Assembly: GCA_963726255.1 (NCBI GenBank)
Contig: CAVSBL010000002.1
Coordinates: 1,408,001 to 1,472,000, forward strand
Length of the DNA stretch: 64,000 nucleotides
From: Candidatus Bathyarchaeota archaeon
Lineage (GTDB): Archaea; Thermoproteota; Bathyarchaeia; 40CM-2-53-6
Direction: 5' to 3'
Both the position numbers and the translations under genes were made by a program. A model generated the notes under the pieces. The model was not told where the DNA came from. It made no database searches and saw nothing but the letters and a program-made list of their open reading frames with translations. Positions 32,515 to 51,292 of the stretch are shown here, piece by piece; the stretch's first letter is position 1, and each line of letters starts with the position of its first letter.

Positions 32515-32704
32515 TGGCGGGCCCGCCGGGATTTGAACCCGGGACCCTTCCCCAAGAAGGCTTCTCAGCCGGTTTCTTTTCGGGTGGCTTCCCATGGGTT
32601 CGAAAAGCCCAGAGGTAAAAGCGTCATCGACACCAGTCTGGCGTCTCCGATGCTCTACCTTTTCAGGATCCAGACTTGAAAGGATCTGACTGAGCTACGG
32701 GCCC
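32515..32704 (-). tRNA. tRNA-Lys(UUU) with four introns (17/17a, 30/31, 37/38, 43/44)
   Basis: Removing 32661-32687, 32623-32646, 32586-32615 and 32548-32579 gives a 77-nt cloverleaf GGGCCCG TA GCTC AGTCAGGTA GAGC A TCGGG CTTTTAA CCCGA GGGTC CCGGG TTCAAAT CCCGG CGGGCCC G CCA; each intron has BHB-type pairing. Confidence 0.9.
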
Positions 32705-33995: not shown

Positions 33996-34099
33996 TGGCG
34001 CCCTTCGCCAGGAGAAGGCTAGCTGCTCCTTTGGGCGGGATTCGAACCCGCGTCGACGACGTGACAGGCCGTCATCCTAGACCACTGAACGACCAGGGC
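33996..34099 (-). tRNA. tRNA-Asp(GUC) with intron at 68/69 in the acceptor stem
   Basis: Removing 34004-34031 restores acceptor pairing GCCCTGG/CCAGGGC plus G73 and CCA (76 nt); anticodon loop CTGTCAC. Confidence 0.9.
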
Positions 34100-34312
34100 A
34101 TCGGCAACTCAGAAATCCCTGAGCCAGCTTAAAGCATTGCTACAGCATAGGCACTAGGCGCATCTTACTTGTGTAAGGATGGAATAAGATACGGACTCAT
34201 TGTCGACTATTCTCTTAACCATCGTCGCGCTGCTGATCCTCGTCCCAGTGATACTAGTCTACTTTCGTTTTCGTCAACGCCTACTGCAACGAATTCTCAA
34301 AAACTCCTGATC

Positions 34313-36197: not shown

Positions 36198-36650
36198 ATG
36201 CCAATCAATGAGGGCACGAAAGCACCCGATTTCACCCTGAAAGATCAAAATGGCAAGCGGGTAAGGCTTCGCGATTTCCGGGGGAAGAAGGTTGTTCTAT
36301 ATTTCTATGTTCGCGATGACACGCCCGGATGTACTAAAGAAGCGTGCAGCTTCCGCGACGGCCTTGCAAGATTGAAAGATGTTCCGGTGCTCGGCATTAG
36401 CCCGGACCCGGTTGACTCACACAAACATTTCGCAGACAAGTACGGCCTCCCGTTTACTTTGCTCTCTGACGAGAAAGCCAGGGTCGCCAAGAAGTTCGGT
36501 GTTTGGGGTAAGAAGAACATGTACGGTAGAACCTACTATGGAGTCATACGCTCAACTTTCATCATCGATGAATCCGGTACCATCAAACAAGAATACAAAC
36601 GTGTGAAGGTAGATGGCCATTTAAGCCAAATTATCAAGAATTTACGGTGA
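36198..36650 (+). CDS. bcp: BCP/PrxQ peroxiredoxin
   Basis: YFY.RDDTPGCTKEACSFRD, RSTFII. Confidence 0.9.
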   Translation: MPINEGTKAPDFTLKDQNGKRVRLRDFRGKKVVLYFYVRDDTPGCTKEACSFRDGLARLKDVPVLGISPDPVDSHKHFADKYGLPFTLLSDEKARVAKKFGVWGKKNMYGRTYYGVIRSTFIIDESGTIKQEYKRVKVDGHLSQIIKNLR

Positions 36651-37144
36651 GGGCAACAACCCCTAGCTGGTCAGATCCTGTGGTAAACTTGGACGTTGCA
36701 TACGTCCCAACACCCAAGGACCTCGTTCGCAAAATGCTGAGGGTGGCAGGCGTGCGTCGGGGTGAGACCGTTTTCGACCTTGGGGCCGGGGACGGGCGCA
36801 TACTGATCGCGGCCGTGAGGGGGTTTGGGGCACGAGCCATAGGCGTCGAGATGGACCCGGAACGACTGGCCCGAATACAAGAACGATTAACTGCGACGGG
36901 CACAGAGGCAACAGTGCTTGCAGGAGATTTAATGCGGGTCGACCTGTCCACTGCAGACGTGGTCACGATTTACCTTTCAGAATCGGTGAACACCAAGCTG
37001 GCCGAAAAGCTGAGGAACGAACTCAAACCTGGGGCGCGGATAGTTTCACTAGACTACGTCCTCCCGGGATGGACCTCGGAACGAGACTTGACCGTCGGGA
37101 GCGGGGGTATCACACGCAAGTTATACTTGTACAGGGCTCAATGA
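36647..37144 (+). CDS. SAM-dependent methyltransferase (protein-lysine MTase-like)
   Basis: YVPTP, DLGAGDGR, ADVVTIYL, ELKPGARIVS. Confidence 0.85.
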   Translation: MRATTPSWSDPVVNLDVAYVPTPKDLVRKMLRVAGVRRGETVFDLGAGDGRILIAAVRGFGARAIGVEMDPERLARIQERLTATGTEATVLAGDLMRVDLSTADVVTIYLSESVNTKLAEKLRNELKPGARIVSLDYVLPGWTSERDLTVGSGGITRKLYLYRAQ

Positions 37145-37281: not shown

Positions 37282-37480
37282 TGGTCCCGCGGGCCGGAGT
37301 TTCATAGGGTTTGGCCCTATTTTGAATTCGCCGGACCGCGAATAGTCCTCCAGCGACACTCCGGTTTCCGTTGTTAGCCTAGTAGGCTGACATGGGCACG
37401 CCTTGGGCGCACACCTACAGCGTCTCCGTCACTCCGTATAAGAGGGACTCGGAAGCTCTACCAGGCTGAGCTACCGCGGG
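37282..37480 (-). tRNA. tRNA-Tyr(GUA) with four introns (30/31, 37/38, 53/54, 59/60)
   Basis: Removing 37422-37449, 37366-37414, 37327-37349 and 37299-37320 gives 77-nt CCCGCGG TA GCTC AGCCTGGTA GAGC T TCCGG CTGTAGA CCGGA GTGTC GCTGG TTCAAAT CCGGC CCGCGGG A CCA; C1-G72 and A73 are archaeal Tyr identity elements. Confidence 0.92.
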
Positions 37481-37612
37481 ACCGAGTCAAAGCCTTCGCC
37501 CTGTAGCCTATAAGGTTTCACGAAGTATCTGCCGACCCAGCCATCTTCGTTGTGAGGGAAGCGCCCGCGTTAAATCCTCGGAAACATTGTCCTCGTCCTT
37601 AGGTTAGTTTCA

Positions 37613-38021
37613 ATGACTTTCAAGCGATCTTTCCGTGTTCACTGGGTCGACACCGACATCGCAGGCGTCATGCACTTCAGCAATTTCTTTCGCTACTTCG
37701 AAGCCTGCGAAGAAGAATTTTACCGTTCACTGTCTCTACCTTTAACCGAAATTCGCGAGAACTTTGGCGTGATGTTGCCTCGCGTCGAGGTCCATTGTCA
37801 GTACACGGCTGCGTGCCGATTCGATGAACAAATTGATGTTACGTTGAGAGTTCGCGAAGTCGAAGAGAAGACCATCACTTACAATTTCCAAATATTTCGT
37901 CAATCAGACGGAAAACTCGACGGCCGAAGGCTACGTGAAATGTATCGCAGTAAATTCGGAATGGAAGGCTGTACCGCTGCCCGCTGAAATCGCAAAGACG
38001 GTTCGCAGCAGCATTGGCTAG
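37613..38021 (+). CDS. 4HBT/YbgC-family thioesterase, frameshifted near 37920
   Basis: RVHWVDTDIAGVMHFSNFFRYFE; continues in another frame as AEGYVKCIAV...AVPLPAEI to TAG 38021. Confidence 0.8.
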
Positions 38022-38794: not shown

Positions 38795-38909
38795 TGGCGG
38801 GCCCGCGGGGATTCGAACCCCGGATCCCAGGCTTTCGCCGCGAACGCTCCGAAGGCTTACACGAATCGGTTCCATCTCTGTGTCTTAATCCTGGCTCGAC
38901 TACGGGCCC
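38795..38909 (-). tRNA. tRNA-Arg(UCG) with two introns (29/30, 37/38)
   Basis: Removing 38857-38877 and 38834-38848 gives anticodon arm CAGGC CTTCGGA GCCTG; A20 present; GCCA end; 79 nt. Confidence 0.88.
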
Positions 38910-43461: not shown

Positions 43462-44025
43462 ATGGAGAACAGCCCCGCGCCCGTTCCTCAAGCCCCTTCA
43501 CAGACACAAGAAAAGCCACTGTTCACTCCCTGGAACGCCGTGTCCGACGGGCGTTTGGTCTACTTACCATACAAATCTGAACTCATGGAGCTACGAGACC
43601 GGGGGTTCGGCGAACTCAGAAAAGACAAGCTTCTCCTGTCTTCATACGAATCCTTCTACCTCCTAGAGAAACAGAAAATTCGCGTTTTCACCAAGAAAAG
43701 CAACCGGGAGTTAGAGCTTCGAGACCTTGTCCGGACATTTTCCGTCGGTAGACCCGAGATCTGGATAAAGTACTTGGTCTACAGGGACCTACGGGACCGT
43801 GGTTACATAGTTCGCGAGTCCACCAGGGCTTTCGATTTTGACATTTACGGAAAAGGGCCGCTAAGGCGATTAATCTCGATCGTATACGAGGGTGGCGAGG
43901 CAAGCCTCAGGAAACTGAGAGGACTACTTCAATATTCTGACAAGGAAAAGAAGGAACTGATACTAGCAGTTGTAGACCGACGCACAGACATAGTCTACTA
44001 TACGTTGAACTCGTTAAAGGTCTAG
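43462..44025 (+). CDS. tRNA-splicing endonuclease, structural (non-catalytic) subunit
   Basis: LSSYESFYL, KYLVYRDLRDRGYIV, ILAVVD...IVYY EndA fold; lacks the G-x-K-Y-G Tyr and the catalytic His. Confidence 0.8.
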   Translation: MENSPAPVPQAPSQTQEKPLFTPWNAVSDGRLVYLPYKSELMELRDRGFGELRKDKLLLSSYESFYLLEKQKIRVFTKKSNRELELRDLVRTFSVGRPEIWIKYLVYRDLRDRGYIVRESTRAFDFDIYGKGPLRRLISIVYEGGEASLRKLRGLLQYSDKEKKELILAVVDRRTDIVYYTLNSLKV

Positions 44026-51144: not shown

Positions 51145-51292
51145 TGGCGGGCCCGCGGGGATTTGAACCCCGGACTTCTGCACTGGCCTTCCAGTTCTAC
51201 AGCTTTTTCCGGGTGTTCCTTAGGGGGTTCGGCAACAATCTCCGCCTCTTTAAGCGGAGCCTGCCGCTCTATCCAACCTGAGCTACGGGCCC
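51145..51292 (-). tRNA. tRNA-Arg(CCU) with three introns (30/31, 37/38, 45/46); C at position 33
   Basis: Removing 51228-51260, 51205-51220 and 51176-51196 gives a 78-nt cloverleaf with GCAGC CCCCTAA GCTGT AGGTC; A20 present. Confidence 0.8.

What the first reader, a model, noticed from the sequence alone, without database searches (positions are those of the whole stretch)
37282..37480. tRNA-Tyr(GUA) with four introns and 6-7 nt micro-exons
Introns are 28 nt (30/31), 49 nt (37/38), 23 nt (53/54) and 22 nt (59/60). Central helices are CTTC/GGAG, CTGT/ACGG, CGCT/GGCG and TTCA/TGAA, all fully paired with G-U allowed. Exons are 31, 7, 16, 6 and 17 nt, so 61% of the gene is intron. The T-loop exon TTCAAA sits between two introns. 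Tyr normally has a single isoacceptor, so this gene is probably essential (inference).
Basis: partly seen in the sequence, partly recalled or inferred. Interest (0 to 1): 0.92.

Follow-up and report, generated by a model that had tools for sequence, protein, structure and literature searches.

The report
Four-intron tRNA-Tyr gene in Bathyarchaeia
This is a real tyrosine tRNA gene, the only one found in the genome, cut into five pieces by four short introns of the archaeal protein-spliced type, and related species carry the same gene with one to five introns.

Summary
On the minus strand (37480..37282) lie exons of 31, 7, 16, 6 and 17 nt and introns of 28, 49, 23 and 22 nt at positions 30/31, 37/38, 53/54 and 59/60. 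Joining the exons gives a perfect tRNA-Tyr(GUA) cloverleaf. My own path search gave this parse as its single solution.

[quoted passage not shown] Across 15 distinct relatives 96% of the tested pairs hold, and 19 pairs change on both sides. Exons are 98-100% identical; introns are 64-83% identical. Relatives lack single introns exactly at the predicted joints.

The lineage is Bathyarchaeia. In its order, at least 40 of 105 genomes carry four or five introns in this gene, at seven positions in all.

No second tRNA-Tyr was found. The genome has a catalytic and a His-less EndA paralogue plus RtcB.

Splicing is not proven: the RNA contigs are ambiguous. Reviews give three introns as the maximum. 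An Asgard preprint of 2026 reports up to five. So this is a new member of a known kind.

The parts
37282..37480 (-). whole tRNA-Tyr(GUA) gene, 199 nt, five exons and four introns, CCA encoded
37450..37480 (-). exon 1 (31 nt): acceptor 5' strand, D arm, anticodon stem up to position 30
   Evidence: identical 31-mer in 83 stretches of public genome contigs
37422..37449 (-). intron 1 (28 nt) at 30/31; central helix 4/4, inner helix 3 bp, outer helix 2 bp
   Evidence: central helix 100% paired in 15 sequences; inner helix has 6 pairs that change on both sides
37415..37421 (-). exon 2 (7 nt): positions 31-37 with anticodon GTA
   Evidence: invariant in 12 four-intron genes
37366..37414 (-). intron 2 (49 nt) at the canonical 37/38 site; central helix 4/4, inner 3 bp; the outer helix (anticodon stem) is 1 bp in the primary transcript and 6 bp once intron 1 is gone
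37376..37385 (-). conserved 10-nt element inside intron 2, complementary to the gene's own D arm (37458-37467)
   Evidence: 70 of 73 distinct 37/38 introns have a complement of 8 nt or more; shuffled mean 5.9
37350..37365 (-). exon 3 (16 nt): positions 38-53
37327..37349 (-). intron 3 (23 nt) at 53/54; central helix 4/4, inner helix 5 bp, no outer helix
37321..37326 (-). exon 4 (6 nt): T-loop positions 54-59; exactly the 4 helix nt plus 2 bulge nt that intron 4's BHB needs
   Evidence: invariant; contiguous with its neighbours in relatives that lack introns 3 and 4
37299..37320 (-). intron 4 (22 nt) at 59/60; central helix 4/4 Watson-Crick, inner 5 bp; the outer helix (T stem) is 0 bp before and 5 bp after removal of intron 3
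37282..37298 (-). exon 5 (17 nt): positions 60-73 plus CCA
37510..37514 (-). TATA-like pentamer 30-34 nt upstream of tRNA position 1; possible archaeal promoter, read by eye only
   Evidence: sequence; the gene is intergenic between ORFs 36647-37144 and 37613-37987
43462..44025 (+). second EndA paralogue (187 aa), lacking the catalytic His; probable structural subunit of the splicing endonuclease, 6 kb from the gene

Best explanation
This is the functional, and apparently only, tRNA-Tyr(GUA) gene of a Bathyarchaeia genome. It is transcribed as a 199-nt precursor (inferred). Each of the four introns forms a BHB motif: two 3-nt bulges set 4 bp apart.

A two-subunit splicing endonuclease cuts inside the bulges (inferred). 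It would be made of a catalytic EndA and a His-less paralogue, like the crenarchaeal (alpha-beta)2 enzyme, which accepts introns at non-canonical sites. RtcB then joins the five exons (inferred).

All four introns have an inner helix, so each is at least an HBh' substrate in the primary transcript. The outer helices of introns 2 and 4 are the anticodon stem and the T stem. These become complete only after introns 1 and 3 are removed. The likely order is therefore 1 before 2 and 3 before 4 (inferred, about even odds).

The 6-nt and 7-nt exons are as short as they can be while still carrying the 4+2 nt that the next intron's BHB needs.
For: - **Parse:** the spliced product is a perfect tRNA-Tyr with C1-G72 and A73. 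It is the single solution of my path search.
- **Structure conservation:** on 15 distinct genes, 45 tested pairs are 96.0% paired, against 34.6-41.0% when the partners are slid. 19 pairs change on both sides, against 7.3 +/- 1.8 in shuffles; 0 of 500 shuffles reach the observed value. The four central helices are 100, 98.3, 100 and 100% paired.
- **Exons versus introns:** exon identity is 0.98-1.00 and intron identity 0.64-0.83 among 12 four-intron genes.
- **Exact intron loss in relatives:** some lack intron 3 only, some lack 3 and 4, and some lack 1 and 3. In each case the exons abut exactly.
- **Same joints in five-intron genes**.
- **Outer helices:** intron 2 goes from 1 to 6 bp and intron 4 from 0 to 5 bp after the neighbouring intron is removed.
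- **Enzymes:** there are two EndA paralogues. One is 7.7e-41 to a crenarchaeal EndA chain and keeps the His; that residue is Ala in a second deposited chain, which I take to be a catalytic-site mutant. In the other paralogue that His falls in a gap. There is one RtcB.
- **No other tRNA-Tyr**.
- **RNA hint:** three contigs of an RNA library join exon 3 to exon 4 and keep the start of intron 4. No such junction was found in DNA: none in my loci, and 0 of 57 metagenome hits lie in a tRNA-Tyr context.
Against: - **No clean proof of splicing.** The one RNA-library contig that joins exons 3, 4 and 5 carries a 255-nt flank unlike this genome. Its best match among my loci is a relative whose DNA already lacks introns 3 and 4. 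All runs laid were assembled contigs, which cannot show RNA ends or levels.
- **Folding alone does not favour the BHBs.** In the primary transcript the mean probability of the central helix is 0.09 for intron 1, about 0 for intron 2, 0.82 for intron 3 and 0.42 for intron 4. Intron 2 stays at about 0 in every partly spliced state. The minimum-energy fold shifts intron 1's helix by one register and pairs the D arm with intron 2.
- **The assembly** is 98.5% complete with 9.3% contamination, so a missing second gene cannot be excluded.
- **My searches for a second Tyr gene** need a contiguous anticodon loop, a 7/7 acceptor stem and strict BHBs.
Confidence: 0.9

Rival explanations
1. The locus is a decaying or non-functional copy. 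The working tRNA-Tyr would lie elsewhere, either in an unassembled part of the genome or as a split or permuted gene that my searches cannot see.
For: The assembly is not closed: 5 contigs, 98.5% complete. Only 17 Rfam and 30 ARAGORN tRNA hits were found, so the tRNA census is incomplete. Two relatives carry an orphan 3' fragment of a Tyr gene about 1 kb from their full gene.
Against: The exons are 98-100% identical across 12 four-intron genes, while the introns vary and keep their pairing. The gene keeps CCA and a perfect cloverleaf. The same gene sits in at least 40 of 105 genomes of the order. No second GUA gene was found.
Confidence: 0.04
2. Not all four insertions are independent EndA introns. 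Some might be removed by another route, or the exon 4 micro-exon might be placed wrongly.
For: Intron 3 has no outer helix. The motifs of introns 1 and 2 are not favoured by folding alone. The motif-free alignment misplaced the 6-nt exon in 4 loci, L006, L011, L033 and L097.
Against: Relatives without introns 3 and 4 have exactly this 6-nt T loop between exons 3 and 5. Removing introns 3 and 4 together with exon 4 as one piece would leave no T loop. The central helices are paired in 98-100% of 15 sequences. The BHB-based search placed exon 4 correctly in L006 and its duplicate L033 and in L011 and L097.
Confidence: 0.04
3. Chance resemblance or an assembly artefact.
For: BHB-like motifs are frequent: 46 in 278 nt. 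The genome-wide run gave many low-scoring false parses.
Against: There is one solution at the top raw score, 19, against 11-16 for the parses I judged to be noise. The gene recurs in dozens of independent assemblies with compensatory changes.
Confidence: 0.01

Closest known systems
Multiple-intron tRNA genes of Thermoproteales (Crenarchaeota)
   Same: [quoted passage not shown] They are cut by an (alpha-beta)2 EndA. [quoted passage not shown] Sources: passages of PMC4033280 and PMC8450103.
   Different: Both papers give three introns per gene as the maximum. Here there are four, and five in relatives. The lineage is Bathyarchaeia, for which my searches found no report.
[quoted passage not shown]
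   Same: Most tRNA genes are interrupted, with up to five intervening sequences in one gene. Standard finders miss many of them. Introns sit at BHB-competent joints, and gains recur. Sources: bioRxiv 10.64898/2026.10.13.758758, abstract and passages; bioRxiv 10.1101/2023.11.21.568159, passages.
   Different: The phylum is different. The 2026 preprint does not mention Bathyarchaeia: 0 occurrences of 'bathy'. I could not see its supplements, so I cannot say which genes hold five.
Nuclear tRNA-Ile(UAU) of the red alga Cyanidioschyzon merolae
   Same: It has introns in the D stem, at 37/38 and in the T loop. Removal was shown to be ordered, with the outer introns going before the 37/38 one. Source: PMC3728597, passages.
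   Different: It is eukaryotic, has three introns, and was verified by experiment.
Split and tri-split tRNAs (Nanoarchaeum, Caldivirga)
   Same: The pieces are joined at BHB motifs by the same enzymes (PMC4033280, passage).
   Different: Those pieces are transcribed from separate loci. Here all five exons are collinear within 199 nt.

Membership tests
Archaeal BHB (EndA-dependent) tRNA intron | Two 3-nt bulges separated by a 4-bp central helix, with the cuts inside the bulges | tested here: met
   All four introns have 4/4 central pairs at the joints that give the mature tRNA. The helices are 98-100% paired in 15 sequences.
Archaeal BHB (EndA-dependent) tRNA intron | At least one flanking helix (exon-side h or intron-side h') of 2 bp or more | tested here: met
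   The inner helices are 3, 3, 5 and 5 bp. The outer helices are 2, 1, 0 and 0 bp in the primary transcript; those of introns 2 and 4 become 6 and 5 bp after the neighbour is removed, measured in relatives that share these exon letters.
Archaeal BHB (EndA-dependent) tRNA intron | Removal restores a canonical cloverleaf | tested here: met
   ARAGORN reads the joined exons as tRNA-Tyr(gta), 77 nt.
Archaeal BHB (EndA-dependent) tRNA intron | The motif is the favoured fold of the precursor | tested here: inconclusive
   The ensemble probability of the central helix is 0.09, 0.00, 0.82 and 0.42 for introns 1 to 4. Protein binding and tRNA tertiary structure are not modelled.
Archaeal BHB (EndA-dependent) tRNA intron | Cleavage and ligation shown in RNA | tested here: inconclusive
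   RNA-library contigs show forms without intron 3, or without introns 3 and 4. These may come from relatives whose DNA lacks them.
(alpha-beta)2 heterotetrameric splicing endonuclease | Two paralogous subunits of about 180 aa, one catalytic and one lacking a catalytic residue | tested here: met
   There are two genes, of 188 and 187 aa, each with both EndA Pfam domains. The first aligns over its whole length to crenarchaeal EndA chains and keeps the His. In the second that His falls in a gap. Assembly into a tetramer was not tested.
Split or permuted tRNA gene | Exons at separate loci or in permuted order | tested here: not met
   All exons are collinear within 199 nt.
Self-splicing group I or II intron | A ribozyme core recognisable by Rfam | tested here: not met
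   No intron family matched in the window or in the locus. The introns are only 22-49 nt long.

The most novel reading that the evidence does not exclude
This order of Bathyarchaeia may be a second, independent hot spot of extreme tRNA gene fragmentation, beside Thermoproteales and certain Asgard families. One tRNA family carries one to five introns at seven positions, with turnover inside a single genus. Exons shrink to the 6-nt minimum that a BHB allows.

In addition, the ancient 37/38 intron carries a conserved 10-nt complement to the tRNA's own D arm. This may hold the precursor in an alternative fold and so set the order of splicing, or serve another step of maturation.
Probability: 0.3. 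Interest if true: 0.65.

Novelty: new member of a known kind. Interest (0 to 1): 0.5.

Why it matters
Reviews and the tRNAscan-SE 2.0 paper give three introns as the archaeal maximum. Only an Asgard preprint of 2026 goes higher.

Here a non-Asgard lineage has four introns in its only tRNA-Tyr gene, and close relatives have five. At least two more tRNA genes of the same genome also have four. Standard finders miss the Tyr gene altogether. Genome annotations and tRNA-based completeness estimates for Bathyarchaeia are therefore likely to be wrong.

Species of one genus differ by single introns at exact joints. That gives a natural series for studying how tRNA introns are gained and lost, and in what order overlapping motifs are cut.

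Tried and rejected
- **Standard finders on the unspliced gene.** ARAGORN and Rfam gave nothing. A permissive Rfam search gave only a sub-threshold YrlA match, which rests on the tRNA-like 5' part.
- **First genome-wide run of my finder.** It timed out. I repeated it with stricter anchors. It returns many low-scoring false parses (raw 11-16), including two 'Tyr-like' ones: C2:1514839-1514471 and an ATA anticodon at C2:1960006-1959634. I reject both as noise.
- **First anticodon-anchored search.** It was too permissive and timed out. The stricter version ran to the end.
- **Relaxed BHB rules.** These gave noisy parses for distant loci. I replaced them with a motif-free spliced alignment.
- **RNA evidence.** Four RNA runs were laid, all as contigs. 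The junction that removes introns 3 and 4 cannot be told from a relative's two-intron gene. Depth differences along the gene are not usable for contigs, and parts without cover mean nothing.
- **Metagenome scan for the intron-3-less junction.** It gave 57 hits, none in a tRNA-Tyr context. This is weak negative evidence only.
- **Other tRNAs of the window.** The loci at 38795-38909, 51145-51292 and 34025-34100 gave no solution in my finder. The one at 32515-32704 gave 362 solutions.
- **Supplements of papers** were not seen. Those of the Asgard preprint may list genes with four or five introns.

Full report
**What is there.** The finding lies on the minus strand, 37480..37282. ARAGORN reads the joined exons as a 77-nt tRNA-Tyr(gta) with a regular cloverleaf, C1-G72, A73 and an encoded CCA. 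C1-G72 and A73 as archaeal tyrosine identity marks is my recollection, not a call. Neither ARAGORN nor Rfam recognises the unspliced gene. The gene sits in a 468-nt gap between ORFs 36647-37144 and 37613-37987. A TATA-like pentamer lies 30-34 nt upstream (by eye).

**Is the parse forced?** I wrote a search that reads a cloverleaf along the DNA and may jump only across BHB candidates. A candidate needs four central pairs, 3-nt bulges and a flanking helix. The 278-nt region holds 46 such candidates, so the motif alone is cheap. All four introns have 4/4 central pairs. The inner helices are 3, 3, 5 and 5 bp and the outer helices 2, 1, 0 and 0 bp in the primary transcript. In relatives that share these exon letters, the outer helix of intron 2 (the anticodon stem) grows to 6 bp once intron 1 is removed. 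That of intron 4 (the T stem) grows to 5 bp once intron 3 is removed.

**Relatives.** The gene was found in all 41 genomes searched first. The 31-nt exon 1 occurs in 83 stretches of public genome contigs. Their titles are mostly Bathyarchaeia, with some Nitrososphaeria, Brockarchaeota and Terraquivivens. A spliced alignment that ignores the motif put insertions at the same four joints in 24 loci, which are 12 distinct sequences. It misplaced the 6-nt exon in four of them; the BHB-based search placed it correctly.

Other relatives lack single introns exactly. Some lack intron 3. Some lack introns 3 and 4, so that the 6-nt T loop lies directly between exons 3 and 5. Some lack introns 1 and 3.

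Among the 12 four-intron genes, exons are 98-100% identical and introns 64-83%. On 15 distinct genes, 45 pairs of the four motifs and of two hairpins in intron 2 are 96.0% paired. With slid partners the figure is 34.6-41.0%. 19 pairs change on both sides, against 7.3 +/- 1.8 in shuffles; 0 of 500 shuffles reach this. The sequences are related, so these controls overstate significance somewhat. The compensatory changes in the inner helices of introns 1, 3 and 4 are nevertheless plain.

**Wider pattern.** In the order as sampled (105 genomes), 43 match the stretch from exon 3 to exon 5 with both T-arm introns.
- Two of the 43 (G004, G011) match through an orphan 3' fragment about 1 kb from a three-intron gene.
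- Of the other 41, I parsed 24 with the same four introns.
- I parsed 15 with five introns. Thirteen genomes of one family and one of another add an intron at 9/10. One adds an intron at 44/45.
- The last 2 were ambiguous.
- One further genome has four introns in another combination.

With 22/23 the order shows seven intron positions in this one tRNA. All spliced forms are read as tRNA-Tyr by ARAGORN.

In this genome tRNA-Glu(CTC) and tRNA-Pro(GGG) also have four BHB introns. Relatives confirm both.

**Is it the only tRNA-Tyr?**
- ARAGORN with introns found 30 genes and none for Tyr.
- Rfam found 17 tRNAs.
- My anchored run gave no credible second Tyr.
- A search from all 3,686 possible GUA anticodon loops, allowing up to five introns, returned this gene and one poor candidate, scoring 7 against 12.

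These searches have stated limits, and the assembly is 98.5% complete.

**Machinery.** There are two EndA paralogues. The 188-aa one matches crenarchaeal EndA chains at 7.7e-41. It keeps the His that is Ala in another deposited chain of the same protein. In the 187-aa one, encoded in the window at 43462-44025, that His falls in a gap of the alignment to the Methanocaldococcus enzyme. One RtcB ligase gene is present. A catalytic plus a structural subunit is the make-up of the (alpha-beta)2 enzyme. According to PMC4033280 (passage), that enzyme cuts relaxed motifs at non-canonical sites.

**Results against my reading.**
- Folding alone does not favour the motifs of introns 1 and 2. Their central-helix probabilities are 0.09 and about 0; those of introns 3 and 4 are 0.82 and 0.42.
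- The minimum-energy fold (-85.2 kcal/mol, z -3.74) pairs the D arm with a 10-nt element of intron 2.
- RNA evidence is weak. In one peat metatranscriptome a contig joins exons 3, 4 and 5. Its flank resembles a relative whose DNA lacks those introns.
- Three contigs join exon 3 to exon 4 and keep intron 4. I found no such DNA among my loci or among 57 metagenome hits. This fits removal of intron 3 before intron 4 but does not prove it.

**Novelty.** PMC4033280 and PMC8450103 (passages) state a maximum of three introns. A preprint of October 2026 reports up to five in Asgard genes and does not mention Bathyarchaeia. Five literature searches found no paper on tRNA introns in Bathyarchaeia and no archaeal gene with four or five introns apart from that preprint. 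Subscription journals and supplements were not covered. I file this as a new member of a known kind.

Noticed in passing
L021:1470-1688, L023:848-1078, L025:1445-1678, L181-L191, L202: Relatives of the same order carry FIVE BHB introns in tRNA-Tyr. Fourteen genomes have 9/10, 30/31, 37/38, 53/54 and 59/60. One has 30/31, 37/38, 44/45, 53/54 and 59/60. In the 9/10 set the exons are 9, 22, 7, 16, 6 and 17 nt.
   Followed up: yes
window 37376-37385 with 37458-37467 (minus strand): The 37/38 intron holds a conserved 10-nt element complementary to the tRNA's own D arm. 70 of 73 distinct 37/38 introns from Bathyarchaeia, Nitrososphaeria and others have a complement of 8 nt or more; the shuffled mean is 5.9. 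It dominates the predicted fold of the precursor. Its function is unknown.
   Followed up: partly
G000:C2:1095561-1095710 (minus) and G000:C2:979121-979301 (minus), outside the window: tRNA-Glu(CTC) and tRNA-Pro(GGG) of the same genome also have four BHB introns each. The motif-free alignment places the Glu set (10, 23, 41, 61) in 11 of 25 loci and the Pro set (15, 23, 33, 48) in 16 of 25. Other loci differ by single introns at the same joints.
   Followed up: yes
window 32515-32704 (minus): A probable tRNA-Lys(CTT) with about three introns. The BHBs of two of them are weak, and the parse is not unique: 11 solutions under strict rules and 362 under relaxed rules.
   Followed up: partly
window 34025-34100, 38795-38909, 51145-51292 (all minus): There are further tRNA genes on the same strand: an intron-less tRNA-Asp, and two interrupted genes whose ARAGORN anticodon calls are doubtful. 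My finder gave no solution for them.
   Followed up: partly
window 43462-44025 (+): A His-less EndA paralogue, the probable structural subunit of the splicing endonuclease, lies 6 kb from the tRNA-Tyr gene.
   Followed up: yes
L015 about 2560-2748 and L013 about 2560-2750: Two congeneric genomes have an orphan 3' part of a tRNA-Tyr gene (exon 2 to exon 5, with introns at 37/38, 53/54 and 59/60). It has no exon 1 in the 260 nt shown upstream and lies about 1 kb downstream of their complete three-intron gene. It could be a pseudogene, a partial duplicate or the 3' half of a split gene.
   Followed up: partly
whole genome G000: Only 17 tRNA matches by the Rfam model and 30 by ARAGORN with introns, many with doubtful anticodons, in a genome rated 98.5% complete. 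Standard tools clearly under-call tRNAs in this lineage.
   Followed up: partly
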